44,313 nt of DNA, taken from the NCBI GenBank assembly GCA_022825085.1, contig JAJDYQ010000056.1, forward strand, positions 1 through 44,313. Reading direction: 5' to 3'. The position numbers were made by a program, and so were the translations under genes. Below, piece after piece: positions 1,907-17,017 of the stretch. The notes beneath the pieces were generated by a model that made no database searches, had not been told where the DNA came from, and saw only the letters and a list, made by a program, of their open reading frames with translations. The stretch comes from Gammaproteobacteria bacterium. GTDB taxonomy: Bacteria; Pseudomonadota; Gammaproteobacteria; JAJDYQ01. Numbering within the stretch: position 1 is the first letter of the stretch; each line of letters starts with the position of its first letter.

Positions 1907-3031
1907 ATGTCTAATATCGTTATTGCCGGTTCCGGGTTCGCCGCCTGTACGGCTGTCCGTGCGCTGAGAAAAAACGGCTTCCGTGACTATATTACGCTGG
2001 TCTCACCCAGGGCCGAGTTGTTTTATTATCCCAGCCTTATCCGGGTCGCCGATGGCGGTCGCAAGGAATCCGATCTGCGGGTTTGTCTGGATGGCTTTTT
2101 CAGGCGACATGGCGTCAATCATGTGGCGGCTTCCGTTACCGGGCTGGATAGTCATAACAGGGCCCTGGATACCAGCCGGGGCAAGCTGGAATACGATTAT
2201 CTGCTTATCGCCAGTGGCGGGCGCTATATCAGAAAGTTACCCGGCCTGGAGCTTGCCCATATCGCCTGCGCAGGCTGGCAGGAGACGAATAGCTGGGCAC
2301 AAAAATTAAATTCCATGTCGTCCGGCAGTCTTGCCTTTGGCTTTGCCGGTAATCCGAATGAGCCTTCTGCCATGCGCGGCGGTCCTGTCTTCGAGTTTTT
2401 GTTCGGCACGGATACGTTGTTGAGGCGGCAGGGTCGGCGCAACAGGTTTGAGCTGCATTTTTTCTCTCCCGCCAAAAAGCCAGGGGCCAGAATGGGAGAT
2501 AAGGCCGTCGAGCGCATACTGGGTGAAATGCAGCGCCGCCATATCACGATTCATGCAGGCCATAAAATGAAGCGGTTCGAGGCCGGCAGGGTTGTTACCG
2601 ACGGCGAGGAGTTTGCCGGTGATCTGATATTGTTTGTGCCGGGTATGACTGGCCCGGACTGGGCATCGAATAGCGGGCTGGCTTTGTCGGCAGGTGGCTT
2701 TTTTCAGGCTACGGAGCATTGCAGGGTGACCGGCAGCGAGCGTGTGTATGTCGCTGGCGATGCCGGGAGTTTCCCCGGTCCGGACTGGAAACCGAAGCAG
2801 GCACATATGGCTGATTTGCAGGCTGAGACTGCCGCTAAAAATATATTGAATCAGATTGCCGGCCGTGAAGATGATCATACGTTCAAAACCGAGTTGATTT
2901 GTATTATTGATACGCTGGATACCGGCACTATGGTGTACCGGGATTGTCAGCGTATGTTTCAGATTAAGGCCAGACCATTTCACTGGGCCAAGTCCTGGTT
3001 TGAGTGGCGTTATCTGCGCCCCTATCGGTAG
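1907..3031 (+). CDS. sqrF: Sulfide:quinone oxidoreductase, type VI (SqrF-like)
   Basis: 374 aa; N-terminal GxGxA FAD fold; GNPNEPSAMRGGPVFEF; AGD..PKQAHMA. Cys at 121, 272 and 332 (counted), and no Cys in the 150-165 loop, as I recall for type VI SQRs. Confidence 0.8.
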   Translation: MSNIVIAGSGFAACTAVRALRKNGFRDYITLVSPRAELFYYPSLIRVADGGRKESDLRVCLDGFFRRHGVNHVAASVTGLDSHNRALDTSRGKLEYDYLLIASGGRYIRKLPGLELAHIACAGWQETNSWAQKLNSMSSGSLAFGFAGNPNEPSAMRGGPVFEFLFGTDTLLRRQGRRNRFELHFFSPAKKPGARMGDKAVERILGEMQRRHITIHAGHKMKRFEAGRVVTDGEEFAGDLILFVPGMTGPDWASNSGLALSAGGFFQATEHCRVTGSERVYVAGDAGSFPGPDWKPKQAHMADLQAETAAKNILNQIAGREDDHTFKTELICIIDTLDTGTMVYRDCQRMFQIKARPFHWAKSWFEWRYLRPYR

Positions 3032-3202
3032 CTGTCTCTGTGGCATCAGTGGCTGACTCTTGCCGCTGTCAGGTTGATGTGGGTAAAGTTGTTTGTGCGC
3101 CTTTGATTGGTTTTTTTATTATAATATGTGAGGTTTTTTAGATGAGTCGCTTTTAATACGGTGCTCTTCTATATCTTTCGACATGTATCTGGAGATTCTA
3201 AA

Positions 3203-3523
3203 ATGAAAGTCGTTTATTTTGCAGTTGTCGCCGCAGCCATGACCGCTGCCACCTGCCCCGCCATGGCCGCCGATGCGGATGCCGGTCAGGCTGCCTTTAA
3301 TGCCAAGGGCTGTGTCGGTTGCCACGGTGTCGCCGGCAGCAGTCCGATTCCGGCTAATCCTCCCAATCCGGCTCTGAACGGCAAGGGCGCTGACTATATC
3401 AAGCAGGCTTTGACGGATTACAAGTCCGGCGCAAAGCAGAATGCCACCATGAATGCCATGGCAGGCCTGTTGAGCGACGAGGATATTGATAACGTTGCAG
3501 CCTATCTGGGTGCCCAGGAGTAG
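3203..3523 (+). CDS. Periplasmic monoheme c-type cytochrome (c553/c554-like)
   Basis: Signal peptide MKVVYFAVVAAA...AMA; CVGCH heme motif; distal Met (TMNAMA); GGAG RBS at 3191; start ATG at 3203. Confidence 0.9.
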   Translation: MKVVYFAVVAAAMTAATCPAMAADADAGQAAFNAKGCVGCHGVAGSSPIPANPPNPALNGKGADYIKQALTDYKSGAKQNATMNAMAGLLSDEDIDNVAAYLGAQE

Positions 3524-3563
3524 GAATATCGGTAACCATGCTGCTCTGCGGCAGGTTGAGAAG

Positions 3564-3593
3564 AGCCGGCAGGGGTTTTCTGCCGGCTTTTTT
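3564..3593 (+). terminator. Rho-independent terminator after the cytochrome c gene
   Basis: AGCCGGCAG-ggggttt-CTGCCGGCT stem followed by a T run; lies between convergent genes. Confidence 0.8.
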
Positions 3594-3660
3594 ATTGCCA
3601 GCCCTGATAACGGATCAGTTCGGGAGACAAGGCAGGGGTGGCATCATTCCAGAAACGCCG

Positions 3661-3921
3661 CTAAAACTTTTTCTTGGAGGCAAAGTGACCACGTTCACCG
3701 GAATCCTGGTCCACTATCCTGTCTGTTTCTATGGCCAGTTCTATCGCCATGTCAATCGCCTTTCTCAGGGCACTCTTCTGGTTTTTTTCGGTTACTTTTC
3801 CGGTACCTACCATCTGGGCGAATATCTGCGTCGCGGACTGGTAGATGACGGTGGGGATTACCAGATCGCTGCGTGCAACCCTGATTCTCGTCATTTCAGA
3901 CATATTACGCATGTCAGCCAT
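3661..3921 (-). CDS. Small hypothetical protein (86 aa)
   Basis: AGGAG RBS before the ATG; helical, protein-like sequence; same strand as and downstream of the GMC gene. Confidence 0.6.
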   Translation of the reverse strand: MADMRNMSEMTRIRVARSDLVIPTVIYQSATQIFAQMVGTGKVTEKNQKSALRKAIDMAIELAIETDRIVDQDSGERGHFASKKKF

Positions 3922-4025
3922 TATGTTCTCCTGCTTTGCTCGATACGGTAGTGATTACAACGTCACTATTTTATCATTGCTCCGGTTATTGCATAGAGAT
4001 ATTTGCCATTCTTTGCCGAGGCAGC

Positions 4026-5627
4026 CTAACGGTTGTCCGCTTTAATCATATCGCTGGCCTTTTCTGCAATCATAATGGTCGGGGCATTGGTGTTGCCCGA
4101 TGTGATCTGCGGCATAATGGAGGCGTCTGCAATACGCAGGTTTTTTATTCCGTAGGCCCTGAGTCTTTCATCTACTACGCTTGTACCATCATCTGTTCCC
4201 ATTTTACAGGTACCAACAGGATGGTAGATGGTCTGGCTGTAGTTTTTTGCCGCTTCCAGCAGTTCGTCATCGCTCTGGTAGTCTCTGCCCGGAATGTATT
4301 CTTCTGTAATCACTTCTTTCAACGGTGAGCTGTTGGCAATTTTACGCGCCACTTTTATGGCACCAATGGCGGTCTTTCTGTCTTTTTCCGTAGCAAGGTA
4401 GTTGGGAATTATGTCCGGCTTTTCCAGATAGTCGTTGCTTTTTATGGCAATGCTGCCTCTACTCTCCGGACGCAGGATGCACACCGAGGAGGTGAAGGCT
4501 GAAAATGGATGTACTCCATCTCCCGGTTTGTCGGCACTCAGGGGTTGCATGTGAAATTGAATGTCAGGGCGTGAACCGTCCAGTCCGGTATTGGTAAAGG
4601 CGTAAACCTGACTGGCACTCAGGGTAAGCGGACCCGTTCTGAATAATATGTACTGCATACCTACCAGGGTCCTTTTCCACCAGCGATTCAGCTCGTCGTT
4701 CAGTGTGTTTTCTCTGGTTTTATAGACCAGCCGAATTTGCAGGTGGTCCTGCAGATTTTGCCCAACCGCCGGATTGTCGTACTCTGGCTTGATATTGTGT
4801 GCGACAAGTAATTTTTCATCTCCAATACCCGATAGCTGTAATAACTTTGGCGAGTTGATCGCACCGGCACTCAGTATTGTTTCCAGAGCTGCATGGACTT
4901 CTTGCTCTCTGCCATTCTGTATGTATTGTACGCCAATCGCTTTTTTGTCCTTGATTATAATTTTTCTGACGTTTGCCCCACAAATAATGGTGAGATTTTT
5001 TCGGTGCTTGACGGGGTGTAAAAATGCCTTCGCGCTGCTGTAGCGGAAGCCTTTGTAGGCAGTCTGCTGGAAATAGCCTACTCCCTGCTGTTGTCTGCCA
5101 TTGCAGTCATTGTTCAGCGGTATGCCGGCAGCAACGCTGGCCTTGATGAATTTGTCGGCGATGGGCCGCCTCAGGCGCAGCTTCGAGACTCGCAGTTCTC
5201 CGCTATCACCGTGATATTCGCTTTTACCTTCTTCATTGTTTTCTGATTTTATAAAATACGGCAGAATGTCGTTATAACTCCAGCCTTTGTTGCCCAGCGC
5301 TTCCCAGTTGTCGTAGTCGTGTTTGTCACCGCGAATGTACAACAGGCCGTTGAGTGAGCTGGACCCCCCCAGAACCCTGCCTCTTGGCCATTCGATAGAT
5401 CGGTTGTTGATACCTTTGTCTTTATTGGTTTTGTACATCCAGTCGAACTGTGGATTGTGCATGGTTTTGAAGTAACCTACCGGTATGTGTATCCAGGGGC
5501 TGTTGTCTCTGCCTCCTGCCTCCAGTATCAGCACTTTTTTGCTGTTGTCTTCCGAAAGTCTGTTGGCCAGTACGCATCCGGCCGAACCGGCACCAATAAT
5601 AATGTAGTCGTAATGGTTGCTGCCCAT
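4026..5627 (-). CDS. GMC-family FAD oxidoreductase (choline dehydrogenase / isethionate dehydrogenase IseJ-like)
   Basis: DYIIIGAGSAGCVLANRLSE, PRGRVLGGSSSLNG, VGQNLQDH, YHPVGTCKMG, GNTNAPTIMIAEK. Confidence 0.92.
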   Translation of the reverse strand: MGSNHYDYIIIGAGSAGCVLANRLSEDNSKKVLILEAGGRDNSPWIHIPVGYFKTMHNPQFDWMYKTNKDKGINNRSIEWPRGRVLGGSSSLNGLLYIRGDKHDYDNWEALGNKGWSYNDILPYFIKSENNEEGKSEYHGDSGELRVSKLRLRRPIADKFIKASVAAGIPLNNDCNGRQQQGVGYFQQTAYKGFRYSSAKAFLHPVKHRKNLTIICGANVRKIIIKDKKAIGVQYIQNGREQEVHAALETILSAGAINSPKLLQLSGIGDEKLLVAHNIKPEYDNPAVGQNLQDHLQIRLVYKTRENTLNDELNRWWKRTLVGMQYILFRTGPLTLSASQVYAFTNTGLDGSRPDIQFHMQPLSADKPGDGVHPFSAFTSSVCILRPESRGSIAIKSNDYLEKPDIIPNYLATEKDRKTAIGAIKVARKIANSSPLKEVITEEYIPGRDYQSDDELLEAAKNYSQTIYHPVGTCKMGTDDGTSVVDERLRAYGIKNLRIADASIMPQITSGNTNAPTIMIAEKASDMIKADNR

Positions 5628-5633
5628 GCCGGC

Positions 5634-6860
5634 CTAAAATCTGTCGTAGTCAATCGCGCCACGGTCCAGGCGTTTGAATGATGAGGTCATGGGGTATTTC
5701 AAGCCGGTAGCGCAGTTATACAGGACGGCGGTGTCACTTTTGTCAATCCAGCCCTCTTCAAGCGCCGTTTTGCAGGCTACCGCTGTTGCCGCTCCTTCCG
5801 GGCATAAAAGCAGGCCGTCTTTGTCGGCAATGTCGTCTCGCATTTTCATAATGTCGTCATCGCTGACGGATACCGCAAAACCACCCGATTCATTGACAGC
5901 CTGTAAAATTAAAAAATCTCCAATGGCAACAGGCACGCGAATGCCGGCAGCAACCGTTTGGGCATTCTCCCAGGGAACCGCTGTGGTCTGTTTGTTTTCC
6001 CAGGCCCTGACGATGGGAGCACAGGTCTGCGCCTGTACGACAACCATTCTTGGCAGTTTACCGCTTATCCAGCCCATGGCTTTCAGCTCGTTAAATGCCT
6101 TCCACATGCCTATCATTCCGGTACCGCCACCAGTCGGATAGAAAATAACGTCCGGCAGTTGCCAGCCCATTTGTTCGGCAAGTTCCATACCCATCGTTTT
6201 CTTGCCTTCAATGCGGTATGGTTCTTTCAATGTCGATACGTCGAACCAGCCTACAGCTTCTTTGCCCTCGCCTACTATCCTGCCACAGTCATTTATCAAT
6301 CCATCTATCAGATAAACATCGCCACCCTGTTGCTTGATTTCTGCAACGTTTATTGTCGGTGTATCATCCGGACAGAATACCGTTGTCTTTATGCCGGCAT
6401 GGGTCGCATAGGCCGCCATGGCCGCACCCGCATTGCCATTGGTCGGTATGGCCAGATGCTTAATGCCAAGCTCTTTGGCCATGGATACCGCCAGACATAA
6501 ACCTCTGGCCTTAAATGAGCCGGTGGGCAGCCGGCCTTCGTCTTTGACGATTATCTTGCCACTGGATGATCCCAGAACTTCACTGGATCGGTTCAGGGGA
6601 ATAAGGGGGGTAATAACTTCTCCCAGTGAAATCTGATTTTCGCTTTTTGTGACTGGCAAAAAGTTTTCATATCGCCAGAATCCGTTTTTACTGCTGGCTT
6701 TGATTGTCTGTTTGCTGACATGCTCTGCCAATGCCTCCAGGTCATATTTGACCAGCAGGGGCTTGCCCGCCTCGGACAAGGTTTGAATTGTATCTTTCTC
6801 GTATTTTTTGCCGGTCAACGAGCATTCCAGATGGGTAACGAAGGTGTTTATTTGTGACAT
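5634..6860 (-). CDS. Threonine-synthase-like PLP enzyme (fold type II), function unknown
   Basis: DEGRLPTGSFKARG (PLP lysine), PTNGNAG, EGKKTMG, PTGGGTG, NCATGLKY. Sits in the sulfonate cluster, not with thrA/thrB. Confidence 0.85.
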   Translation of the reverse strand: MSQINTFVTHLECSLTGKKYEKDTIQTLSEAGKPLLVKYDLEALAEHVSKQTIKASSKNGFWRYENFLPVTKSENQISLGEVITPLIPLNRSSEVLGSSSGKIIVKDEGRLPTGSFKARGLCLAVSMAKELGIKHLAIPTNGNAGAAMAAYATHAGIKTTVFCPDDTPTINVAEIKQQGGDVYLIDGLINDCGRIVGEGKEAVGWFDVSTLKEPYRIEGKKTMGMELAEQMGWQLPDVIFYPTGGGTGMIGMWKAFNELKAMGWISGKLPRMVVVQAQTCAPIVRAWENKQTTAVPWENAQTVAAGIRVPVAIGDFLILQAVNESGGFAVSVSDDDIMKMRDDIADKDGLLLCPEGAATAVACKTALEEGWIDKSDTAVLYNCATGLKYPMTSSFKRLDRGAIDYDRF

Positions 6861-6873
6861 TTATGGTTCCTTG

Positions 6874-8190
6874 TCAGTCGTACAGTACCCCTGGCAGCCA
6901 AAGCGCCAGTTGGGGAAAAATAATAATCAGTAACAGTCCCAGCAGTTGGATCCCTATAAACTGGAACATGCCCTTGTAGATGTCTTTCAGATCCCATTCG
7001 GGGACGACCCCTTTCAAGAAATAGGCCGACAGGGCAACAGGGGGCGAAAGCCAGGCAGTTTGCAAATTAACGGCAACCAGAATGGCAAACCAGGTCAGGT
7101 TAAATCCCAGTTGTTCGACCAGAGGCAGCAGAATGGGAATAATAATGAGGACTATGGGTACCCACTCCAGTGGCCAGGCCAGCAAAAAAATCAGCACCAT
7201 GATGATGGCCAGAATAATGTATGGCGACAGTTCAAGGGTCAGCAGAAATTCGGTCATCATTATCGGGGTGCCGAGTCGCGAAAAGACAGCACCGAAAAAG
7301 TTGGATGCCGCCACCAGAACCATAATCAGCACGGTAATTTCCAGGGTTTTCATCAGGGCATCCTGAAAAACTCCAAAGGTCAGCCGTCTGTATATCAGGG
7401 TGAGGAAAATGGCACCGATAACCCCTATCGCTGCCCCTTCTGTCGGTGTTGCCAAACCAAATAAAATACTGCCCAGTGCCGCAGCAACCAGAACAGCAGG
7501 AGGCAGCAGGCCTCTGGCAAATTCAAGCCAGACTGTGCCCATGGAGGCACTGCGCAGATGTTCGGGAAGTTTGGGGCCCAGACTCGGATTGATGTAACAG
7601 CGAATCAGTGTGTAGGCCATGTACATGGTAGCCAGCATCAGCCCCGGTATGATGGCGGCCGCAAACAGTTCAGTAACCGGCACTTCCAGTATGGGTCCCA
7701 TCACGACCAGCATGATACTGGGCGGGATCAGTATGCCAAGGGTTCCTCCTGCGGTAATTGCTCCGGCTGCCATGCGTACATCGTATTGGGAACGCTGCAT
7801 GATTTTGCCGGACATAATACCCAGAATAGTCACGGATGCGCCAACAATCCCGGTTGCTGCCCCAAAGATGGTCGATACCACCAGTACCGCAATGAACAGG
7901 GCACCATTTACTCTGGACAGCAGCAGTTGTATTGACTGGAAAAGCCTTTCCATCAGATCCGCTTTTTCCATCAAAATACCCATAAATACAAAAAGCGGTA
8001 TGGCAGCCAGAGTCTGTTCCAGCATGATGTCGGCAAACTGGAAGGTGATCAGATAAAAAACCAGATCACCAAAGCCCAGCAGGCCAAATACCAGACCCAG
8101 AAATATCAGCGTAAACGAGATGGGGAAGCCAATAAATATGGCTATCAGCATCACCGCGATTAAAACAAAACCCAGTGCCTCCGGGCTCAC
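6874..8190 (-). CDS. dctM: TRAP transporter large permease (DctM)
   Basis: Polytopic membrane protein with GGTLGILIPPS, TPTEGAA, LQTAWLSPP. GTG start at 8190 overlaps the upstream stop (TAGTG). Confidence 0.92.
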   Translation of the reverse strand: MSPEALGFVLIAVMLIAIFIGFPISFTLIFLGLVFGLLGFGDLVFYLITFQFADIMLEQTLAAIPLFVFMGILMEKADLMERLFQSIQLLLSRVNGALFIAVLVVSTIFGAATGIVGASVTILGIMSGKIMQRSQYDVRMAAGAITAGGTLGILIPPSIMLVVMGPILEVPVTELFAAAIIPGLMLATMYMAYTLIRCYINPSLGPKLPEHLRSASMGTVWLEFARGLLPPAVLVAAALGSILFGLATPTEGAAIGVIGAIFLTLIYRRLTFGVFQDALMKTLEITVLIMVLVAASNFFGAVFSRLGTPIMMTEFLLTLELSPYIILAIIMVLIFLLAWPLEWVPIVLIIIPILLPLVEQLGFNLTWFAILVAVNLQTAWLSPPVALSAYFLKGVVPEWDLKDIYKGMFQFIGIQLLGLLLIIIFPQLALWLPGVLYD

Positions 8191-8795
8191 TATGGCCACC
8201 TGTTATGTTTGATCGTGTAGGCACATTTCAGAAGCTCGGAGATGCCCTGGATAACAAGCAGTACAATACCGACAGGCAGCACTGATTTAATGGGACCCAT
8301 GTGCGGCATCCACGCGGTATCCATGCCAAGTTCTCCTCGAATCCAGGCGGTAAAGGCATAGTCCGAGGCTGCAATTAAAAACAGAAACATGCCCGGAAAG
8401 AAAAAGACGATATATAAAAAGGCATCCACTTTTGCCTGAGTGGATGCCTGCCAGTTTCTGTAAATGAAATCGGCACGAATATGTACTCCTTTCAACAACC
8501 CGTAAGCCGCCCCCAACATAAACAGGGCACCACTGAACATGCGGCTGACATCGTAGGCCCAGAGTGTCGGCGCATTGAGAAAGTGGCGCATGAATACTTC
8601 ATAGCCCATAGCCAGAAATATCGGTACCACAAGCCAGCATATTGCAATGGCGAGGCGGTGATTAAACCTGTCAATCCGTCCAATCACCGCCGCCATCCAG
8701 GGCGCCATATCATCCGGCAGATTGCCAATACCACGGGATTCGGCAATCAGCTCATCGGTAATGTCAAGCTCGGCACCCTTATCTGAAGCAGGCAT
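8190..8795 (-). CDS. dctQ: TRAP transporter small permease (DctQ)
   Basis: Four TM segments; YEVFMRHFLNAPTLWAYD and HIRAD motifs; between DctP and DctM. Confidence 0.92.
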   Translation of the reverse strand: MPASDKGAELDITDELIAESRGIGNLPDDMAPWMAAVIGRIDRFNHRLAIAICWLVVPIFLAMGYEVFMRHFLNAPTLWAYDVSRMFSGALFMLGAAYGLLKGVHIRADFIYRNWQASTQAKVDAFLYIVFFFPGMFLFLIAASDYAFTAWIRGELGMDTAWMPHMGPIKSVLPVGIVLLVIQGISELLKCAYTIKHNRWP

Positions 8796-8803
8796 CAGGT
8801 TGG

Positions 8804-9895
8804 CTACTTTAGCTGGTCTGCAAACGCCTTACCCAGCTTTGCATTGGAGGTCTGTGCGCCTGACCAGAAAGGAACTACCGTTTTGGCGAACTCCTTTTGA
8901 GAGTCCCAGACACGCTTGAAGAAAGCATTCTCTTCTGCATTTTTATCGAGAATGTTTTTGGCCGCATCCATATAGGCAGGAAAGTAGTCGGCAGGGGTGT
9001 CATGCAGAATGACTCCATGATTTTCTGTCAGGTCCCTCAGCGCCTTGCCATTTTCGTGAATCCTGTAGGCAACAGCACGCATAAGCGAGGCATCGGCAGC
9101 AACTTCAATGGCGCGCTTTTGTTTGTCAGTCAGCTTACGCCAGACATCACCATTGATATATAAGTCCGCATTCACCACAACCTGATGCAAACCCTGCAGG
9201 TAGTAGTGTTTCAGTACCTTTTGAAAGCCAAATACACTGTCCGGCTTGGGGCAGCACCATTCCGCTGCATCGATGGTGCCTTTTTCCAGCGCGGGCAGGA
9301 TGTCACCTCCACCCATGGCTACTGCGGCAACGCCTATGTCGTTGTAGGTCTGACCCGGTATGCCCGGCGGTGTCCTGAAACGATATTTACGGAAGTCATC
9401 CATGCTTTTTATGGGTTCCTTGAACCAACCCAGCGCCTCAGGGCCCACAGGCTGGAGCATAAGGCCCTTGACATCAAGGCCCATTTCATCCCATAACTGG
9501 TCATACAATTCCTTGCCACCACCGTTCAGATACCATGACATAAAGGCAAAGTTATCCAGCCCAACACCTGCACCTGCCACCGGTGAACCAAACAGCATGG
9601 CCGCCGGGTGATATCCGGACCAGTAGTGCGTCCACGCAAAACCGGCACCAATAAGGCCCTTGTCAACAGCCTCGATGACCTGCTTGTTACCGACAACAGC
9701 ATTAGCCGGCAAGACAGTGAATGTCACTTCTCCATCGGTCAGGTCACTCACATTTTTGGCAAAATCCTTGAGCATGACAATCTCGTCTGCCTTCGATGGA
9801 ATGACCGATTGAACTTTAATATCGACCGCTGAATAGGCGAGATTACCCGCCAGCAACAAGGCCGCTGAACTGACTAAAAGCAATATCCTTTTCAT
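8804..9895 (-). CDS. dctP: TRAP substrate-binding protein (DctP/TakP-type), probably sulfonate-binding
   Basis: Signal peptide; FRTPPG; ILPALEKGTIDAAEW; GGAGGA RBS. The substrate is inferred from neighbouring genes only. Confidence 0.9.
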   Translation of the reverse strand: MKRILLLVSSAALLLAGNLAYSAVDIKVQSVIPSKADEIVMLKDFAKNVSDLTDGEVTFTVLPANAVVGNKQVIEAVDKGLIGAGFAWTHYWSGYHPAAMLFGSPVAGAGVGLDNFAFMSWYLNGGGKELYDQLWDEMGLDVKGLMLQPVGPEALGWFKEPIKSMDDFRKYRFRTPPGIPGQTYNDIGVAAVAMGGGDILPALEKGTIDAAEWCCPKPDSVFGFQKVLKHYYLQGLHQVVVNADLYINGDVWRKLTDKQKRAIEVAADASLMRAVAYRIHENGKALRDLTENHGVILHDTPADYFPAYMDAAKNILDKNAEENAFFKRVWDSQKEFAKTVVPFWSGAQTSNAKLGKAFADQLK

Positions 9896-10157
9896 ATTAA
9901 TCCTCCTGATTTGTTTAGGTCAAGCCCATTTCCAGTATGCGGAATGGGCAGCGTGGCAGTGTGCCCAACACTACACAGACAGTCAATACAACAACCCGTA
10001 TGAGATACAGCACACTACCTTTGGGCAGGATACGCCAGCCTTTCTGAAAAAACCAGCCATAAAATAAAATTTATAAAAAGATTTTGATATCGATGGATGT
10101 AAGGCAGCTTATCGCCATGAATTATTTTTAATCTGCAAGAGGCAAAATACGGGCGGG

Positions 10158-11156
10158 CTATTCTGAATCAGGCGGGTTAAGAATGATTTTTATGGCGTCC
10201 GCCTGCCCATCCAGCAGTTGCTTAAATACCATTGGCCCTTCAGACAAGGCATAGTTTTTATGCCAGTCCAGTTTGCCAAAGCCTCCCCTGGACATGATAT
10301 CGACGACTTCTATAAATTCATCGTGAGTGTAGGTATAGCTACCCACCACAGTAATCTGCGCCAGCGTCATCTTTCGAGGCTCGAATCCGTACTCGGCATC
10401 ACCCAGCCCGATATGTACAAGCACTCCACCGGGGGAAATGCTATCTATGGCATTTTTGCGGGTTATGCTGGAACCAACGGCATCAAGAATGACATCCGCT
10501 TCATGGACGGTGTTGTCGGTGGACGGATTACGGACTTCAATATCTATTGCCTGTGCAAGCAGATCTATGCGTTTGCTGTTCGTTTCCAGCATGACAATGT
10601 TATCGCAACCCAGATACTTCAGGGCCAGAGCAGATGCCAGACCTATGGCCCCACCGCCATAAATTAAAATACGGGCAGATTGCAGCGGTCTTATGCTATG
10701 TTCCTGCGCCAGCTTTACACCGTGCCAGGCAGTTGACAGGGGTTCCGCCAGAGAAGCCTGCTCAAAAGACAGGTTATCATCCACCGTCATCAGATTGCGC
10801 TCCGGTATGGCAAGCCATTGCGCGAAGGTGCCTGGCCTGGGTTCCATGCTGACAATCTGCCTCGATGTGCACAGGTTACTGTGACCATTCAGGCAGTACC
10901 AGCATTGGGTACAGGTCACCAGCGGATCAATAACAACTCTCTCGGATTTGCCACCTATCTGCGCTATGCCGCTGGCTTCATGTCCGAGAATCAGGGGCGG
11001 CGGCCTTCTGCTGTCATGCCCAACATAGGCGTGCATATCCGAACCACAAATACCGGATGCCCTGACCTTGACCAGAACTTCATCTTCTTCGGGACCGGGC
11101 TTCGGGCAGGAAGCGTACTCCAGTTTTTCAATATCTGTAAGGATCAGTGCTTGCAT
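10158..11156 (-). CDS. hpsP: Zn-dependent dehydrogenase HpsP (DHPS dehydrogenase)
   Basis: GICGSDMHAYVGHD.RRP.PLILGHE; structural Zn CxxCxxC-x7-C; RQIVSM.PR.G; order hpsN-hpsO-hpsP. Confidence 0.8.
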   Translation of the reverse strand: MQALILTDIEKLEYASCPKPGPEEDEVLVKVRASGICGSDMHAYVGHDSRRPPPLILGHEASGIAQIGGKSERVVIDPLVTCTQCWYCLNGHSNLCTSRQIVSMEPRPGTFAQWLAIPERNLMTVDDNLSFEQASLAEPLSTAWHGVKLAQEHSIRPLQSARILIYGGGAIGLASALALKYLGCDNIVMLETNSKRIDLLAQAIDIEVRNPSTDNTVHEADVILDAVGSSITRKNAIDSISPGGVLVHIGLGDAEYGFEPRKMTLAQITVVGSYTYTHDEFIEVVDIMSRGGFGKLDWHKNYALSEGPMVFKQLLDGQADAIKIILNPPDSE

Positions 11157-11193
11157 TATTCATCTACCTTTCAAAGTGAGCGCATTAAAAATT

Positions 11194-11973
11194 TCATTTT
11201 GCTGTATAGCCCCCGTCAACCGGCAAAACCTGGCCTGTGACATAGCGGCAGGCACTGGAAGCAAAAAACAGTGTCGCCCCTTCCAGATCCGACATTTCTC
11301 CATTACGGCCTATCGCTGTCATATCCGCATGGTGCATCAACATGTCTTTATCTTTATATACTGGTGCTGTCATTCTGGTCGGAAAAAATCCTGGAGCAAT
11401 GGCATTGCAGTTAATGCCGTAACCGGACCATGCCTCTGCCATAGCCCTCGTCAACTGGACTATGGCTCCCTTGGAGGCACCATAAGCCATGCCGTTTTTG
11501 AAGGCGCGATAGGATTGCAGCGAGGCGATATTGATTATGTTGCCACCACCTTTTTGTCGCATGCCACTGATCAGCGTCCTTGCCAGAAAGAAAGGCACTG
11601 CGGTGTTGATATTCAACGTTTGTTGCCAGTCTTCAATCTGAATATCATCCACCGCCTGTCTCAAATTAACACCTGCCGCGTTGATCAGAATATCGACAGA
11701 ATCAAACTCTTCGCCAATCTGCGCAACTGCCGGTTCAATATTTTCCAGAACGCTTAAATCCACCGTTTTGCAGATACATCTGCCAGTGGGGTTTTCTGCC
11801 AATACTGCCTGACGTGTCTCTTTCAAACCCTGCTCATCCCTGCCAATTAAAACAGTGTCCGCGCCGGCCCTTGCCAGTGTCTTTGCCATGTGTGCCCCAA
11901 TTCCGGAGCTCGCCCCCGTACATAAGGCAACTCTGTCTCGCAGGGAAAACATGGCTTCCAGATAGGTACTCAT
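11194..11973 (-). CDS. hpsO: Short-chain dehydrogenase HpsO (DHPS dehydrogenase)
   Basis: TGASSGIG; INIASLQ..RAF..G.AYGASKG; QLTRAMAEAWS; ends VDGGYTAK; follows hpsN. Confidence 0.82.
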   Translation of the reverse strand: MSTYLEAMFSLRDRVALCTGASSGIGAHMAKTLARAGADTVLIGRDEQGLKETRQAVLAENPTGRCICKTVDLSVLENIEPAVAQIGEEFDSVDILINAAGVNLRQAVDDIQIEDWQQTLNINTAVPFFLARTLISGMRQKGGGNIINIASLQSYRAFKNGMAYGASKGAIVQLTRAMAEAWSGYGINCNAIAPGFFPTRMTAPVYKDKDMLMHHADMTAIGRNGEMSDLEGATLFFASSACRYVTGQVLPVDGGYTAK

Positions 11974-11977
11974 TAAT

Positions 11978-13282
11978 TCAGCCTTCTATTCCGGTATTAA
12001 ATTTTTGTCCCGGAAAATAATGCTTGAGGCGAATATCACCAGTGCGGGCATGGGCCTCCATGCCTTCCAGCCTTGATAGTCTGGCCGTTACCGTTGCCAG
12101 CTCCCTGTTGGCCTGCCTGTCCGCCTTTTGCGTGGTGACAATTTTGATAAATTTATGTACCGACAGGCCGCCGGTGTAGTGACCGGCTCCTCTGGTCGGG
12201 AGAATGTGGTTGGTACCTGAACATTTATCACCAAATGCGACGGTCGTTTCTTCACCAACAAACAGCGAACCATAGTTTTTCAGGTGCCTTTCGTACCAGT
12301 CCGGGTTGCCGGTTTGTATCTCCAGGTGCTCGGGCGCGTATTCATCACTTAGTTCAACCGCTTCTTCATCGTTGTCACACAGGATAACTTCACCGTAATC
12401 ACGCCAGGATTCAGTCGCCGTCTGCCGTTGTTCTTCAGGCAGGGCATCGATAATGTGCGGTACCCGCTCGATAACTTCTGCGGCCAGTTTTTCACTGGTC
12501 GTAATCAGCCATGCCGGTGAATCAACACCATGCTCTGCCTGCCCGACCAGATCATAGGCAACCAGCTCTGCATCGGCATCGCCATCGGCAATAATCAGTA
12601 TTTCTGTTGGCCCGGCAAACAGGTCTATGCCAACCTCGCCATACAGTATTCTTTTTGCTTCAGCCACAAAACGATTGCCCGGACCGACCAGAATATTGGC
12701 CTTATGACCAGTAAACAGGCCAAACGCCATGGCAGCAATGCCCTGAACACCTCCCATTGCCAGAATCTGATCAGCACCGCATAAGTCCATGGTGTATAAA
12801 ATGGCCGGATGAATGCCGTTATATTCTGGCTTTGGCGTGGAAGCAGCAATAACATTGCTGACGCCGGCGACTCTGGCAGTAGTAATGCTCATAATGGCTG
12901 AGGCAACATGGGCATAGCGACCACCCGGCACGTAGCAGCCGGCTGTCTGGATCGGTATCAGCTTTTGCCCCGCCCAGACTCCCGGTGACAGCTCGCATTC
13001 AAACTCCCGGATGCTATCGAGTTGCTGGCGGGCGAAGCTGCTGACCTTGTCGTGAGCAAACTGTATATCGTCTTTCAACTGCTGGCTGAGGCTGTCTTTT
13101 GCTTGCGCTATTGTTTTTTGATCGACCACAATATCGCCGTGCCAGCCATCAAATTTTTTGCCATAGTCAATGGCCTGTTGCTCGCCATTCTGCCTGATGT
13201 TCTGCAGAATATCATTCGTAATGTTTCTGGTTTCCTGTTCATTGGAACCAGGTGTTACCACTGCTTTTTTCAGATACTGCAT
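11978..13282 (-). CDS. hpsN: Sulfopropanediol (DHPS) 3-dehydrogenase HpsN, a histidinol dehydrogenase homologue
   Basis: HisD fold with HpsN-type signatures: MQYLKKA, GCYVPGGRYAHVASAIM, VGPGN.FVAEAKR, QAEHG.DSP, GEETTVAFGDK.SGTNH, EGMEAHAR. GGAGG RBS before ATG 13282; no his operon context. Confidence 0.9.
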   Translation of the reverse strand: MQYLKKAVVTPGSNEQETRNITNDILQNIRQNGEQQAIDYGKKFDGWHGDIVVDQKTIAQAKDSLSQQLKDDIQFAHDKVSSFARQQLDSIREFECELSPGVWAGQKLIPIQTAGCYVPGGRYAHVASAIMSITTARVAGVSNVIAASTPKPEYNGIHPAILYTMDLCGADQILAMGGVQGIAAMAFGLFTGHKANILVGPGNRFVAEAKRILYGEVGIDLFAGPTEILIIADGDADAELVAYDLVGQAEHGVDSPAWLITTSEKLAAEVIERVPHIIDALPEEQRQTATESWRDYGEVILCDNDEEAVELSDEYAPEHLEIQTGNPDWYERHLKNYGSLFVGEETTVAFGDKCSGTNHILPTRGAGHYTGGLSVHKFIKIVTTQKADRQANRELATVTARLSRLEGMEAHARTGDIRLKHYFPGQKFNTGIEG

Positions 13283-13395
13283 GGTGTCCTCCAAGGATTA
13301 TTTGTAGTTTTAGGGAAGTCCCCAATCAGGGGCCCCCTTGCATAATAAAGAATATTTACGGTACCGGCACAGCCAATATATGCAGCAGCTCATGG

Positions 13396-13704
13396 TCACG
13401 GGGCATTCAGCTCTTTCAGGAACCACCCTCCAACAAGCAGATAGGCCACTACTGCCAGCCAGTACTTGCCCGGGTCATCCCTGCGGGTACTGAAAACCCT
13501 GTGCCCATAGTTACCACCTGCCCATGTGATTCCGCCGGTCAGTAAGCCATGTATAGCGTTGTAGAAACACAGGCAGGGCACACCCAACCCATAGCCTTTC
13601 GGTACGGCACCGAACAGCGCCATCCCTATCAGGCTACCGACAATCCCGGCAATCCATACGCCTCTGGGAAAATTCGGCACATCATCTCCCATAGCATTGC
13701 TCAA
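13396..13704 (-). CDS. Small hypothetical membrane protein
   Basis: Two to three hydrophobic segments and an RRDDPGKYW motif. Start uncertain (TTG at 13704; see the frameshift finding). Confidence 0.45.
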   Translation of the reverse strand: MSNAMGDDVPNFPRGVWIAGIVGSLIGMALFGAVPKGYGLGVPCLCFYNAIHGLLTGGITWAGGNYGHRVFSTRRDDPGKYWLAVVAYLLVGGWFLKELNAP

Positions 13705-14057
13705 AAAACTCTTCCACAGCAGTGCGGAATGATTCGGGTTTAGCTGGGCGAGACATGGTTGTTTGCATTACTTTTAAAAATATCCGTTATCCGATTGTAC
13801 CCATAGCCTGCGCCGGGTGACAATGTATTTTTTTGTCCTCCAGCCGGCTCTGTATGGCGGTATCCAGAGTCAGACTTTTGCCGGCTTCGCTCTGTCCGGT
13901 CTGCCCATCACAAAAAAACCAGACTGCTTTCCTGCCAGACTTTATATCAGTCCGGGCAAGCCATATAATAAGCAAAACCCGATTACAGGATAGATTTGTG
14001 TCTGCATCCAGAGTTTGGCACTACACCCCGCATTCTGTCTTTGCGCTGCATGACTGG

Positions 14058-14792
14058 ATGAACAGATTTCGCAGCAGAAAAAAATGGCGGGGTCTCACCT
14101 TCCTGATCACCTGTATCGCTGTCGCCAATCTGGCCTTCAGCGATTCCGTTTATGCTGATATTGATGGTGTGCTTGAAGCCGAGGGGTGGTCTGAGCTGCG
14201 CTTCGATGACAAGCCTGCCAATCAATTTACTGCGGTTTCCGGAACATCCTCTGTCATTCGTATTGACACGCAGCAGTCTGTTTCGATTGCCTATCTGCCA
14301 TTCTCCGGGAGCATTGATCTGGAGCAAACTCCGGTTTTGTCATTTTCCTGGCAGTATCAGGGGCCAGCCCCGGATACCGATCTGACAAGGAAAGGCGGCG
14401 ATGACAGAATCGCGGCTGTTTATGTTGCTTTTCCCTATCAACCTGAAAAAGCCAGTATCAAAGACAGGCTGCTGCGCCCGTTTGTCGAGGCCCGGCAGGG
14501 AAAGGATGCACCGGGCCGTGTGCTGACCTACTTATGGGGTGGTGGAGCAGCCAGAGGTGAGTGGTTTGAAAACCCATATGCAGGAAAGGCCGGATGGATG
14601 CAGATCAGGCAGCTACCGTCTGATCCGGAACAGGTCTGGTTCTCGCATGATATTGATATTGCTGCTGATTTTATGGATCGGTTTGGCTATAAAGCTCCTT
14701 CTCCAAGCTATGTGGCGATTACGGCGGACAGTGATGATACCGATGCAATGTTCAGTGTTTTTATCAGGGAGCTGGCATTTGGTAAAAAATAA
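14058..14792 (+). CDS. DUF3047-family exported protein
   Basis: Signal peptide from M76 of the ORF; LSFSW, GGDDRIAAVYV, LTYLWGG, ADSDDT resemble DUF3047. Confidence 0.7.
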   Translation: MNRFRSRKKWRGLTFLITCIAVANLAFSDSVYADIDGVLEAEGWSELRFDDKPANQFTAVSGTSSVIRIDTQQSVSIAYLPFSGSIDLEQTPVLSFSWQYQGPAPDTDLTRKGGDDRIAAVYVAFPYQPEKASIKDRLLRPFVEARQGKDAPGRVLTYLWGGGAARGEWFENPYAGKAGWMQIRQLPSDPEQVWFSHDIDIAADFMDRFGYKAPSPSYVAITADSDDTDAMFSVFIRELAFGKK

Positions 14793-14878
14793 CTGTCGGC
14801 GCTGCCAGACTGACAGGATTGATTCTGCGCCCGCTCTAATATCAGGGCCATACCCGGCACAGGCATCAAGCCGGAGAG

Positions 14879-15916: not shown

Positions 15917-15920
15917 GGTT

Positions 15921-17009: not shown

Positions 17010-17017
17010 GGCAGTGG

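What the first reader, a model, noticed from the sequence alone, without database searches (positions are those of the whole stretch)
4026..13282. Extended organosulfonate cluster: hpsNOP plus a TRAP-PLP enzyme-GMC operon, with no known desulfonase
Seen: two co-oriented, tightly packed units. One is hpsN-hpsO-hpsP (gaps 4 and 37 nt); the other is dctP-dctQ-dctM-thrC-like-GMC (gaps 8, overlap, 13, 6 nt). Known: HpsO/HpsP interconvert DHPS enantiomers and HpsN oxidises DHPS to sulfolactate. Sulfite release then normally needs SuyAB, CuyA or Xsc, none of which is in the window. Inference: the two extra enzymes co-transcribed with the transporter form an undescribed sulfonate entry or desulfonation branch. 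This is the best candidate for a new system in the window.
Basis: partly seen in the sequence, partly recalled or inferred. Interest (0 to 1): 0.82.

Follow-up and report, generated by a model that had tools for sequence, protein, structure and literature searches.

The report
Sulfonate cluster with misnamed ThrC-like enzyme
A symbiont-like marine gammaproteobacterium carries an ordinary gene set for importing and oxidising the algal sulfonates DHPS and isethionate, but its genus lacks every known enzyme for releasing sulfur from the three-carbon branch and has instead inserted a "threonine synthase" look-alike that is probably an undescribed sulfite-releasing enzyme.

Summary
The eight minus-strand genes are real and spaced as described. 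The reading is partly right.

**Ordinary parts**
- hpsN, hpsO and hpsP are orthologue-grade.
- The TRAP transporter belongs to a TakP-like binding-protein family. In many other bacteria this family sits beside hpsNOP, suyAB and the same GMC gene.
- The GMC enzyme is 54-62% identical to GMC genes in classic isethionate clusters (iclR-xsc-pta-GMC-MFS; iclR-TRAP/GMC). It is most likely IseJ.
- Xsc-Pta, its partner desulfonase, is present elsewhere in the genome. "No desulfonase" therefore holds only for the window.

**The novel part: the ThrC-like gene**
- It is not the housekeeping ThrC. A canonical ThrC exists in all 10 genomes tested.
- Two ThrC phosphate ligands are invariantly replaced.
- It occurs inside this operon only in this genus, where it is under strong purifying selection.
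- All four genus genomes lack SuyAB, CuyA, ComDE and ComC.
- Members of its family (NF006050) sit in sulfonate contexts in Azospirillum, Aliarcobacter, Rhodosalinus and Kiloniellales (with ssuADCB, SsuA-type ABC plus Ldh_2, TauE, or HpsN-CuyC).

**Best reading (about 0.5):** a PLP-dependent desulfonase acting on L-cysteate or a close analogue. This is untested biochemically.

The parts
11978..13282 (-). hpsN: DHPS-3-dehydrogenase (sulfopropanediol 3-dehydrogenase). The same enzyme type also oxidises L-cysteinolate to L-cysteate.
   Evidence: 523 bits to C. pinatubonensis HpsN (PDB 8v35) against 251 bits to the best HisD structure. A separate hisD lies elsewhere in the genome (C23, 33% identity). 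Cysteinolate activity of HpsN is from PMC12814064.
11194..11973 (-). hpsO-like SDR (DHPS-2-dehydrogenase, one half of the enantiomer-interconverting pair)
   Evidence: adh_short_C2, 191 bits. The hpsN-SDR-ZnADH order is conserved in L094, L095, L097, L120, L123 and L128.
10158..11156 (-). hpsP-like Zn-dependent medium-chain dehydrogenase
   Evidence: ADH_N plus ADH_zinc_N. It stays attached to the TRAP unit in G001 and G002, where hpsN-SDR lie elsewhere.
9896..10157 (-). 262-nt A+T-rich spacer between hpsP and dctP; possible internal promoter
   Evidence: Sequence read. Only weak consensus matches, no more than in shuffles, and no terminator-like site in the spacer.
8804..9895 (-). TRAP solute-binding protein, TakP-like subfamily. 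Inferred ligands: DHPS and/or isethionate.
   Evidence: Best PDB match is TakP (2hzk, 111 bits); the isethionate-binding IseP (8t9t) scores only 24 bits. Homologues at 70-82% identity sit with hpsNOP, suyAB or GMC in 6 of 6 metagenome or genome contexts and in most gammaproteobacterial contexts.
8190..8795 (-). TRAP small membrane subunit (DctQ)
   Evidence: PF04290, 74 bits.
6874..8199 (-). TRAP large membrane subunit (DctM)
   Evidence: PF06808, 238 bits; TIGR00786, 275 bits.
5634..6860 (-). ThrC-like fold-type-II PLP enzyme of family NF006050 (named 'threonine synthase'). Candidate desulfonase acting on L-cysteate or a similar amino-sulfonate.
   Evidence: - NF006050 625 bits; TIGR00260 139.7 bits, below the 167.1 cut-off; cysteate synthase TIGR03844 82 bits against a 325 cut-off.
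- A canonical ThrC is present elsewhere.
- Invariant family changes T88A, N188G and D62A relative to T. thermophilus ThrC.
- dN/dS is 0.045-0.086 within the genus.
- Family members lie in sulfonate contexts in other phyla.
4026..5627 (-). GMC flavoprotein, IseJ-type (isethionate to sulfoacetaldehyde). It would feed Xsc-Pta encoded on contig C11.
   Evidence: - GMC_oxred_N/C.
- 62% identical to the Caballeronia GMC in iclR-xsc-pta-iclR-GMC-MFS.
- 56% identical to the Paracoccus GMC in MFS-GMC-xsc-..-pta.
- 54-56% identical to the Leisingera and Ruegeria GMCs in iclR-TRAP/GMC.
- Below the BetA cut-off: TIGR01810 517 bits against 732.

Best explanation
The block is a combined C3/C2 hydroxy-sulfonate catabolic locus.

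**Steps supported by orthology and conserved context**
- A TakP-type TRAP system imports DHPS and probably isethionate.
- HpsO and HpsP interconvert the DHPS enantiomers.
- HpsN oxidises (R)-DHPS to (R)-sulfolactate.
- The GMC flavoprotein is an IseJ-type dehydrogenase that oxidises isethionate to sulfoacetaldehyde.
- The genome's Xsc-Pta pair (another contig) splits sulfoacetaldehyde into sulfite and acetyl-CoA.

**Inferred**
- This genus has lost, or never had, every known enzyme downstream of sulfolactate: SuyAB, ComC, ComDE and CuyA. SlcD was checked only by a motif search in G000.
- The ThrC-like gene sits directly after dctM, the place SuyAB occupies in other lineages. I propose that it supplies the missing C3 desulfonation.
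- The most likely route is sulfolactate to sulfopyruvate by a dehydrogenase (possibly the GMC enzyme), then to L-cysteate by a general aminotransferase. Alternatively, HpsN forms L-cysteate directly from L-cysteinolate.
- The ThrC-like PLP enzyme would then remove sulfite by beta-elimination or beta-replacement, giving pyruvate plus ammonia, or serine. Cysteate is the sulfonate isostere of O-phosphoserine, so this is ThrC / cysteate-synthase chemistry run on a C-S leaving group.

**Confidence by part**
- About 0.9 that the locus is a DHPS/isethionate module.
- About 0.75 that the GMC enzyme is IseJ-like.
- About 0.5 that the ThrC-like enzyme is a desulfonase.
- About 0.35 that its substrate is specifically L-cysteate.
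For: **1. Not the housekeeping enzyme**
- The genome has a canonical long ThrC (C61, 264 bits to TIGR00260).
- 10 of 10 genomes carrying a family member (Gamma-, Alphaproteobacteria, Acidobacteriota) also have a separate, better-scoring ThrC.

**2. Remodelled active site**
- 82 family members keep the PLP lysine and R160.
- They invariantly replace T88 by Ala, N188 by Gly and D62 by Ala.
- They share an invariant WFDxSTLKEPYRIEGKKTMG block.

**3. Missing-step argument**
- There is no SuyB, ComDE, CuyA-type or Ldh_2/ComC in any of the four genus genomes, two of which are complete.
- hpsN and xsc-pta are present in the three genus genomes searched for them; the fourth, G241, carries hpsN in the same cluster.
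- Of 14 other gammaproteobacterial genomes with this TRAP family, 8 have a SuyB-sized hit and 2 have CuyA-type proteins.

**4. Position**
- L094/L114 reads DctPQM-SuyAB-HpsN-SDR-ZnADH-GMC.
- In the window's genus, the ThrC-like gene follows DctM instead.

**5. Retention**
- dN/dS is 0.045-0.086 over dS up to 1.75, like dctP and the GMC gene, in 2-2.5 Mb genomes.

**6. Independent sulfonate contexts of NF006050 members**
- Azospirillum ramasamyi: SsuA-family SBP, ATPase, TauC/SsuC-like permease, ThrC-like (703 bits), then an overlapping Ldh_2 gene.
- Azospirillum B510: a sulfur-scavenging island.
- Aliarcobacter: ssuA-ssuD-ssuC-ssuB-amidohydrolase-ThrC-like (646 bits).
- Chlorohelix: PGDH-like dehydrogenase then ThrC-like, with TauE 4 kb away.
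- Rhodosalinus: TctCBA-ThDP enzyme-MR/MLE-TauE-ThrC-like.
- Kiloniellales L027: HpsN-CuyC-like pair divergent from the ThrC-like gene.
- L016: CuyC-like gene overlapping the ThrC-like start by 4 nt.

**7. Phylogeny**
- The genus clade nests (99/97) with the CuyC-coupled and TauE-linked members.

**8. Chemistry and precedent**
- HpsN plus CuyC make L-cysteate (PMC12814064).
- Archaeal cysteate synthase is a ThrC homologue (established knowledge).

**9. GMC as IseJ**
Against: - There is no biochemical evidence.
- Among the 80 closest genome loci, most family members (all Bryobacterales and many Alphaproteobacteria) stand alone among unrelated housekeeping genes with no sulfonate neighbour. The family's general role may therefore be something else.
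- The operon insertion is a single evolutionary event in one genus.
- A Bilophila protein annotated as threonine synthase, next to a Tct transporter, showed no cysteate sulfo-lyase activity (PMC11193023, data not shown there). Whether it belongs to this family could not be checked.
- The alphaproteobacterial genomes with CuyC-linked copies also have ACC-deaminase/CuyA-like proteins, so there is no complementarity there.
- No dedicated aminotransferase or sulfolactate dehydrogenase is encoded in the cluster.
- SlcD absence rests only on a motif search in G000.
- G000 is 87% complete.
- The operon in L019/L129 (MttB, DAO/GCV_T, arginase-family, OpuAC) could point to a non-sulfonate substrate.
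Confidence: 0.5

Rival explanations
1. The ThrC-like gene is a passenger or a true second threonine synthase with no role in sulfonate use. DHPS is oxidised only to sulfolactate, yielding 2 NADH. The sulfolactate is excreted to the host or to other community members. Only isethionate is desulfonated, through IseJ-type GMC plus Xsc-Pta.
For: - NCBIfam names the family threonine synthase.
- The PLP lysine, R160 and overall ThrC architecture are kept.
- Most family members have no sulfonate neighbours.
- Incomplete DHPS pathways ending at sulfolactate have been reported for other symbionts in earlier notes of this scan (unchecked).
- Xsc-Pta plus the GMC enzyme already explain a complete C2 route.
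Against: - A canonical ThrC co-exists in 10 of 10 genomes tested.
- Two phosphate ligands are invariantly replaced.
- The gene has 13- and 6-nt junctions inside a transporter operon and is retained under strong purifying selection in reduced genomes.
- Family members recur inside ssu, tau, TauE, HpsN and CuyC clusters in four distant lineages.
Confidence: 0.22
2. The enzyme works in the synthetic direction as a bacterial cysteate synthase: O-phosphoserine plus sulfite gives L-cysteate. It would mop up toxic sulfite released by Xsc, or make cysteate or cysteinolate as an osmolyte or lipid head group.
For: - The only characterised ThrC-derived enzyme with sulfonate chemistry is archaeal cysteate synthase (established knowledge).
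- The gene lies next to the TauE sulfite-exporter family in Rhodosalinus and near it in Chlorohelix.
- The Aliarcobacter copy lies in a sulfur-assimilation cluster with a CysM/JAMM/ThiS set.
Against: - It scores only 82 bits against the cysteate synthase model, whose cut-off is 325.
- Its placement in uptake and catabolic operons (TRAP, SsuABC-type importers, ssuD) fits release of sulfur better than fixation of sulfite.
- Sulfur-scavenging clusters are expressed when sulfite is scarce (established knowledge).
Confidence: 0.13
3. The enzyme acts on a different imported amino compound. One candidate is cysteinolate-derived D-cysteate after GMC oxidation, which is the reader's 'entry branch'. Others are homocysteate by gamma-elimination, or a non-sulfonate such as a homoserine derivative.
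For: - GMC enzymes of the choline dehydrogenase type oxidise amino alcohols in two steps (established knowledge).
- ThrC chemistry is natively a gamma-elimination.
- The operon in L129 carries MttB, a DMG-dehydrogenase-like enzyme, an arginase-family enzyme and an OpuAC-type importer. This suggests an N-methylated or guanidino substrate.
Against: - The GMC orthologues sit next to xsc-pta with MFS or TRAP isethionate-type transporters.
- The binding-protein family is tied to hpsNOP and suyAB, not to amino-acid genes.
- ThrC-family enzymes act on L-amino acids.
Confidence: 0.15

Closest known systems
DHPS clusters hpsRKLMNOPQ-slcD of Ruegeria pomeroyi and hpsRNOUP-suyAB of Cupriavidus pinatubonensis
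   Same: The HpsN, SDR and Zn-ADH trio is followed or preceded by a TRAP importer. HpsN scores 523 bits to the crystallised CpHpsN.
   Different: - The TRAP binding protein belongs to another subfamily: TakP-like, and unrelated to the Ruegeria-type SBP tested here.
- There is no SuyAB and no regulator gene next to the cluster; no SlcD-type motif was found in G000 (weak test).
- A GMC gene and a ThrC-like gene are present instead.
Isethionate clusters iseR-iseMLK/iseJ (R. pomeroyi SPO2355-2359) and iseJ-iseU with xsc-pta (Cupriavidus type)
   Same: The GMC flavoprotein is 54-62% identical to GMC genes in exactly these layouts on annotated replicons of Ruegeria, Leisingera, Paracoccus and Caballeronia. 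Xsc-Pta are present in the genome.
   Different: - The transporter binding protein is of another family.
- There is no IclR regulator here.
- xsc-pta are unlinked.
- A PLP enzyme gene is wedged between dctM and the GMC gene.
- No direct comparison with the published IseJ sequences was possible.
CuyA (D-cysteate sulfo-lyase) and the CuyC-HpsN-CuyB-CuyA D-cysteinolate pathway (PMC12814064)
   Same: - It is a fold-type-II PLP enzyme (PF00291) genetically linked to HpsN, and in relatives to CuyC-like genes.
- The proposed product set is the same: sulfite plus a C3 keto or amino acid.
   Different: - It belongs to a different PALP subfamily: ThrC branch, not D-cysteine desulfhydrase (TIGR01275 finds nothing in the genus).
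- It would be expected to take the L-isomer, making the CuyB racemase unnecessary.
- That paper's neighbourhood census counted 'CuyA homologs' by PF00291, so it may have included such ThrC-like genes.
Archaeal cysteate synthase (TIGR03844), a ThrC-derived enzyme
   Same: ThrC ancestry, an N-terminal Zn-ribbon-type extension (its cysteines are kept only in Acidobacteria members), and sulfite/cysteate chemistry as the proposed substrate space.
   Different: It scores only 82 bits against a cut-off of 325. The direction proposed here is the reverse (sulfite release), and the context is catabolic or scavenging.
Canonical threonine synthase (TIGR00260; T. thermophilus 1uim, B. subtilis 6cgq)
   Same: Same fold. 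PLP lysine K61, R160 and the EGxKT block are conserved, with 136-145 bits to the solved ThrC structures.
   Different: - T88A, N188G, D62A and T85N/A are fixed across the family.
- It scores below the TIGR00260 cut-off.
- It was a second copy in all ten genomes tested.

Membership tests
HpsN (DHPS-3-dehydrogenase) | HisD-fold protein closer to characterised HpsN than to histidinol dehydrogenase | tested here: met
   523 bits to CpHpsN 8v35 against 251 bits to the best HisD structure.
HpsN (DHPS-3-dehydrogenase) | A separate hisD in the genome, and synteny with an SDR and a Zn-ADH (hpsO/hpsP) | tested here: met
   A second HisD-family gene lies at C23 (33% identity). The hpsN-SDR-ZnADH order recurs in at least 6 other lineages.
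HpsN (DHPS-3-dehydrogenase) | [quoted passage not shown] | not testable with these tools
   Needs an enzyme assay.
IseJ (isethionate dehydrogenase) | GMC-family FAD flavoprotein | tested here: met
   GMC_oxred_N 184 bits and GMC_oxred_C 134 bits. That IseJ is a GMC protein is from my own knowledge; PMC6453916 calls it a membrane-bound flavin-dependent enzyme.
IseJ (isethionate dehydrogenase) | Orthologues encoded beside an isethionate transporter (iseKLM or iseU), an IclR regulator and/or xsc-pta | tested here: met
   Caballeronia iclR-xsc-pta-iclR-GMC-MFS at 62%; Paracoccus MFS-GMC-xsc at 56%; Leisingera and Ruegeria iclR-TRAP/GMC at 54-56%.
IseJ (isethionate dehydrogenase) | Sequence orthology to the published IseJ of C. 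necator H16 or R. pomeroyi SPO2359 | not tested
   The reference sequences could not be fetched, and the Weinitschke 2010 paper is not held.
IseJ (isethionate dehydrogenase) | Xsc present to consume sulfoacetaldehyde | tested here: met
   Xsc scores 1035 bits, above the cut-off, with pta adjacent on C11. The same holds in G001 and G002.
Threonine synthase (canonical ThrC) | Passes the equivalog model TIGR00260 | tested here: not met
   139.7 bits against a cut-off of 167.1.
Threonine synthase (canonical ThrC) | Conserved phosphate-binding residues of O-phosphohomoserine (T88, N154, S155, R160, N188 in T. thermophilus numbering; residue roles recalled from Omi et al. 2003) | tested here: not met
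   R160 is kept, and N154S and S155T are conservative. T88A and N188G are invariant in 82 family members.
Threonine synthase (canonical ThrC) | Is the organism's threonine synthase | tested here: not met
   A separate canonical ThrC is present in G000 and in all 10 genomes tested.
NF006050 / PRK08197 ('threonine synthase' by name) | Score above the curated cut-off | tested here: met
   625 bits against 303. The family name is not backed by any experiment I could find.
CuyA (cysteate sulfo-lyase) | Member of the D-cysteine desulfhydrase / ACC deaminase subfamily | tested here: not met
   TIGR01275 finds only weak IlvA hits in the genus. The ThrC-like protein belongs to the ThrC branch.
Cysteate synthase (TIGR03844) | Passes the equivalog model | tested here: not met
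   82 bits against a cut-off of 324.9.
DHPS/isethionate TRAP binding proteins (RpHpsK, IseP, SAR11_0864 types) | Sequence membership in a characterised sulfonate-binding cluster | tested here: inconclusive
   - Only 24 bits to IseP 8t9t.
- Unrelated to the Ruegeria iseK-position SBP.
- It is TakP-like, and SAR11_0864, which binds DHPS and isethionate, needs Ca2+.
DHPS/isethionate TRAP binding proteins (RpHpsK, IseP, SAR11_0864 types) | Conserved genomic linkage to hpsNOP, suyAB or iseJ | tested here: met
   6 of 6 contexts of 75-82% homologues. Of 10 informative gammaproteobacterial loci, 5 have HpsN, 5 have GMC and 2 have SuyAB.

The most novel reading that the evidence does not exclude
NF006050/PRK08197 is a large family annotated everywhere as 'threonine synthase'. 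In this reading it is a previously unrecognised class of PLP-dependent C3-sulfonate desulfonases. They would act directly on L-cysteate, the sulfonate isostere of O-phosphoserine, bypassing both SuyAB and the CuyB/CuyA racemase-lyase pair. Bacteria would recruit it both into catabolic DHPS/cysteinolate clusters, as in this symbiont genus and in marine Alphaproteobacteria, and into sulfur-starvation ssu/tau clusters, as in Azospirillum and Aliarcobacter.
Probability: 0.35. Interest if true: 0.8.

Novelty: new variant of a known kind. Interest (0 to 1): 0.62.

Why it matters
DHPS, isethionate and cysteinolate are major currencies of marine carbon and sulfur flux, and sulfonate use is a recurrent trait of sponge and other invertebrate symbionts.

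Gene-based surveys score sulfonate desulfonation by SuyAB, CuyA, Xsc and the glycyl-radical lyases. This lineage carries hpsNOP but none of the C3 markers. Such surveys would call it an incomplete pathway.

If the ThrC-like enzyme is the missing lyase, three things follow:
- A large family now annotated as threonine synthase would need renaming.
- PF00291-based neighbourhood censuses of 'CuyA' would need splitting.
- A simpler, racemase-free route from cysteate to sulfite would be added to the sulfur cycle.

The hypothesis is directly testable with one recombinant protein and a sulfite assay.

Tried and rejected
- **Housekeeping ThrC: rejected.** A canonical ThrC is present in G000 and in 10 of 10 other genomes.
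- **TRAP-ThrC-like-GMC as a conserved three-gene module: rejected.** Among 80 genome loci with 48-97% ThrC-like homologues, only the same genus has TRAP/GMC neighbours. Conversely, no TRAP/GMC locus outside the genus has the ThrC-like gene.
- **GMC as choline dehydrogenase BetA: rejected.** It scores below the TIGR01810 cut-off, and orthologue contexts are xsc-pta or isethionate-type.
- **Unbiased clustering of neighbours of the 80 loci.** This gave only lineage-specific housekeeping genes such as lytic transglycosylase, an ECF sigma factor and ClpP.
- **Greedy ORF calling in high-GC loci.** It proved unreliable and was dropped.
- **Sequences or papers that could not be obtained.**
  - SAR11_0864: no supplements are held.
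  - The IseJ paper is not held.
  - Cluster-member names did not reveal SAR11.
- **Promoter and terminator scans.** They were no better than shuffles.
- **TRAP binding protein against plasmids.** No match.
- **Structure prediction.** It was not run, since it would not discriminate between substrates.

Full report
**Observation**

The window is contig C96 of a 1.95-Mb, 87%-complete metagenome-assembled genome.

| Junction | Spacing |
|---|---|
| hpsN-like to SDR | 4 nt |
| SDR to Zn-ADH | 37 nt |
| Zn-ADH to dctP | 262 nt |
| dctP to dctQ | 8 nt |
| dctQ/dctM | 10-nt overlap |
| dctM to ThrC-like | 13 nt |
| ThrC-like to GMC | 6 nt |

- Pfam and NCBIfam confirm every domain call.
- The HpsN start is the ATG at 13282, behind a GGAGGA motif.
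- No regulator flanks the block. The divergent neighbour is a DUF3047 protein, and downstream lie a cytochrome c and an SQR/FCSD-like flavoprotein on the other strand.

**The hps trio**

- The HisD-family protein scores 523 bits to crystallised C. pinatubonensis HpsN and 251 bits to the best histidinol dehydrogenase.
- The genome has a separate hisD.
- The hpsN-SDR-ZnADH order recurs in many unrelated lineages.
- Recent work shows that HpsN also oxidises L-cysteinolate to L-cysteate, with the DegT-family racemase CuyC as the pathway marker (PMC12814064).

**The transporter**

- The binding protein is TakP-like: 2hzk scores 111 bits.
- It is essentially unrelated to the isethionate-binding IseP structure (24 bits) and to the Ruegeria iseK-position protein.
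- Homologues at 70-82% identity are abundant in marine and host-associated Gamma- and Alphaproteobacteria.
- All six contexts fetched through the protein collection carry sulfonate-cluster genes:
  - DctPQM-SuyAB-HpsN-SDR-ZnADH-GMC
  - IclR/GMC-DctPQM-HpsN-SDR-ZnADH
  - DctPQM-GMC-ZnADH
  - GMC/DctPQM-IclR-SDR
  - SuyAB..DctP..DctQM..HpsN-SDR-ZnADH
  - GMC-SuyAB-EamA..DctP
- In an even sample of 400 genomes of the class, 18 carry the family.
- Of ten informative loci outside the genus, five have HpsN, five have the GMC gene and two have SuyAB next to the transporter.
- The published SAR11_0864 protein binds isethionate and both DHPS enantiomers, needs Ca2+, and sits in an hpsNOP-associated cluster (PMC11485210, PMC13335735). 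This fits a TakP-type cation-dependent binder, but I could not obtain its sequence to test membership.

**The GMC enzyme**

- It is below the BetA equivalog cut-off.
- On annotated replicons, its closest relatives lie in textbook isethionate layouts:

| Organism | Layout | Identity |
|---|---|---|
| Caballeronia | iclR-xsc-pta-iclR-GMC-MFS | 62% over the full length |
| Paracoccus aminovorans | MFS-GMC-xsc-(exporter)-pta | 56% |
| Leisingera and Ruegeria | iclR-TRAP(M,L,K) divergent from GMC | 54-56% |

- The Leisingera/Ruegeria layout is the arrangement listed for R. pomeroyi iseR-iseMLK-iseJ (PMC4334477).
- The genome encodes Xsc (1035 bits) with pta adjacent on contig C11. Both complete genomes of the genus do the same.
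- The GMC enzyme is therefore best read as IseJ, and the C2 branch (isethionate to sulfoacetaldehyde to sulfite plus acetyl-CoA) is complete.

**The C3 branch is open-ended**

| Enzyme or marker | Result in the genus |
|---|---|
| SuyB (PF04295) | absent in G000, G001, G002, G241 |
| Sulfopyruvate decarboxylase (TIGR03846) | best hit 25 bits |
| CuyA-type (TIGR01275; PALP census) | absent |
| ComC/Ldh_2 (PF02615) | absent |
| SlcD-type motif | not found in G000 (weak test) |

By contrast, of 14 other gammaproteobacterial genomes with this transporter, 8 have a SuyB-sized protein. The two that lack it but have hpsNOP carry CuyA-type proteins. Hence the genus makes sulfolactate with no known way on.

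**The ThrC-like gene**

- *Family and copy number.*
  - It is a strong member of NF006050/PRK08197 (625 bits).
  - It fails TIGR00260 and the cysteate synthase model.
  - The genome has a canonical long ThrC.
  - In 10 of 10 genomes carrying a family member, a separate better-scoring ThrC exists.
- *Active site.* Mapped on T. thermophilus ThrC, the PLP lysine and R160 are kept. T88, N188 and D62 are invariantly Ala, Gly and Ala in 82 members spanning three phyla. The block WFDxSTLKEPYRIEGKKTMG is invariant.
- *Distribution.* Inside the TRAP operon it occurs only in this genus (four species genomes). There it occupies the position directly after dctM that SuyAB holds in L094/L114.
- *Selection.* It is under purifying selection as strong as that on its neighbours: dN/dS 0.045-0.086 with dS up to 1.75.
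- *Origin.* Its clade nests with 99/97 support among marine alphaproteobacterial copies.

**Independent contexts of the family**

Most close homologues stand alone among unrelated genes, which is a real caveat. A recurrent minority sit in sulfonate settings:

- Rhodosalinus: LysR/TctCBA-ThDP enzyme-MR/MLE-TauE-ThrC-like.
- A Kiloniellales MAG: an HpsN-CuyC-like pair with overlapping stop and start, divergent from the gene.
- A second alphaproteobacterium: the CuyC-like gene overlaps the ThrC-like start by 4 nt.
- Another Kiloniellales MAG: LacI / CuyC-like-DAO/GCV_T-arginase-OpuAC-ABC-permease-MttB-ThrC-like.
- Annotated plasmids:
  - Azospirillum ramasamyi: SsuA-family SBP-ATPase-TauC/SsuC-like permease-ThrC-like-Ldh_2.
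  - Azospirillum B510: a sulfur-scavenging island.
  - Aliarcobacter cibarius: ssuA-ssuD-ssuC-ssuB-amidohydrolase-ThrC-like.
  - Chlorohelix: PGDH-like dehydrogenase-ThrC-like, near TauE.

A 2-hydroxyacid dehydrogenase is a frequent direct partner. This suits the series sulfolactate, sulfopyruvate, cysteate, which are the sulfonate isosteres of 3-phosphoglycerate, phosphohydroxypyruvate and phosphoserine.

An earlier agent of this scan reached a similar idea from the Azospirillum locus. I re-derived those contexts independently from annotated records, so that note is not counted as evidence.

**Mechanism proposed**

- Shown by orthology and context: import by the TRAP system, the HpsO/P/N steps, and IseJ plus Xsc-Pta.
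- Inferred: sulfolactate goes to sulfopyruvate through an unidentified dehydrogenase, possibly the GMC enzyme, and then to L-cysteate by a general aminotransferase. Alternatively, L-cysteinolate goes directly to L-cysteate by HpsN.
- The ThrC-like PLP enzyme then expels sulfite from C3 of the external aldimine. The aminoacrylate is released as pyruvate plus ammonia, or hydrated to serine.

**Counter-evidence**

- The stand-alone majority of the family has no sulfonate neighbours.
- The operon insertion has a single origin.
- A ThrC-annotated Bilophila protein gave a negative cysteate-lyase result, with data not shown and family membership unverified (PMC11193023).
- CuyA-like proteins are present in the CuyC-linked alphaproteobacteria.
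- No aminotransferase is encoded in the cluster.

**Literature**

Full-text searches for a ThrC-like enzyme acting on cysteate, cysteinolate or other sulfonates found nothing. The JBC 2025 neighbourhood census counted 'CuyA homologs' by PF00291. That count would include these genes.

**Verdict**

The transporter and GMC genes are a known kind of module, and Xsc exists elsewhere. The genus does lack all known C3 desulfonation routes, and the ThrC-like enzyme is a well-motivated, untested candidate for a new one.

Noticed in passing
window 1907-3523 (+ strand): An SQR/FCSD-like flavoprotein (374 aa, Pyr_redox_2) is followed by a small c-type cytochrome, convergent with the GMC gene. The pairing is kept in the close relative L005. 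It is a likely sulfide-oxidation unit next to the sulfonate cluster.
   Followed up: partly
window 13833-17980: A DUF3047 protein lies divergent from hpsN. Next come an NADP-dependent aldo-keto reductase, a FIST-domain protein and phosphoribulokinase on the minus strand. The same order lies upstream of hpsN in G001 (L110).
   Followed up: partly
G001 (L005/L013, L109, L110) versus window 11156-11194: In the complete relative G001, about 31 kb separate hpsN-SDR from ZnADH-TRAP-ThrC-like-GMC. This stretch includes homoprotocatechuate-pathway genes (HpcH, CHMI, LigB, aldehyde dehydrogenase). In G002 the two halves are 1.7 Mb apart. The cluster is therefore being rearranged within the genus.
   Followed up: partly
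L129 (Kiloniellales MAG) 5010-17737: A LacI regulator lies divergent from an eight-gene operon: DegT (CuyC-like), DAO/GCV_T demethylase-type enzyme, arginase-family hydrolase, OpuAC binding protein, ABC ATPase, permease, MttB-family methyltransferase, ThrC-like. It looks like catabolism of an N-methylated or guanidino zwitterion, possibly a sulfonate. The substrate is unknown.
   Followed up: no
L006/L007 (Rhodosalinus) 2234-11227: LysR / TctCBA-ThDP enzyme (532 aa, not Xsc)-MR/MLE enolase-superfamily enzyme-TauE-ThrC-like, with a second TauE upstream. This is a candidate uncharacterised sulfonated-carboxylate pathway. In L006 the ThDP gene appears truncated relative to L007.
   Followed up: no
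PMC12814064, Fig. 6 analysis: The published census of cysteinolate clusters scores 'CuyA homologs' by Pfam PF00291 within 5 ORFs of CuyC. ThrC-like NF006050 genes next to CuyC, as in L016 and L027, would be counted as CuyA.
   Followed up: no
G002:C1:10877-12421 and 2566407-2567951: Two copies of a 545-aa ThDP-enzyme gene with identical scores lie near both ends of the 'complete' chromosome record. This is possibly an unremoved overlap of a circular assembly.
   Followed up: no
G000:C11:12000-27000: xsc-pta sit next to clpA, isocitrate dehydrogenase and a PHA synthesis set (thiolase, reductase, PhaE/PhaC-like). No taurine or isethionate genes are nearby. The Xsc protein is 82% identical to that of a betaproteobacterial Caballeronia plasmid.
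   Followed up: partly
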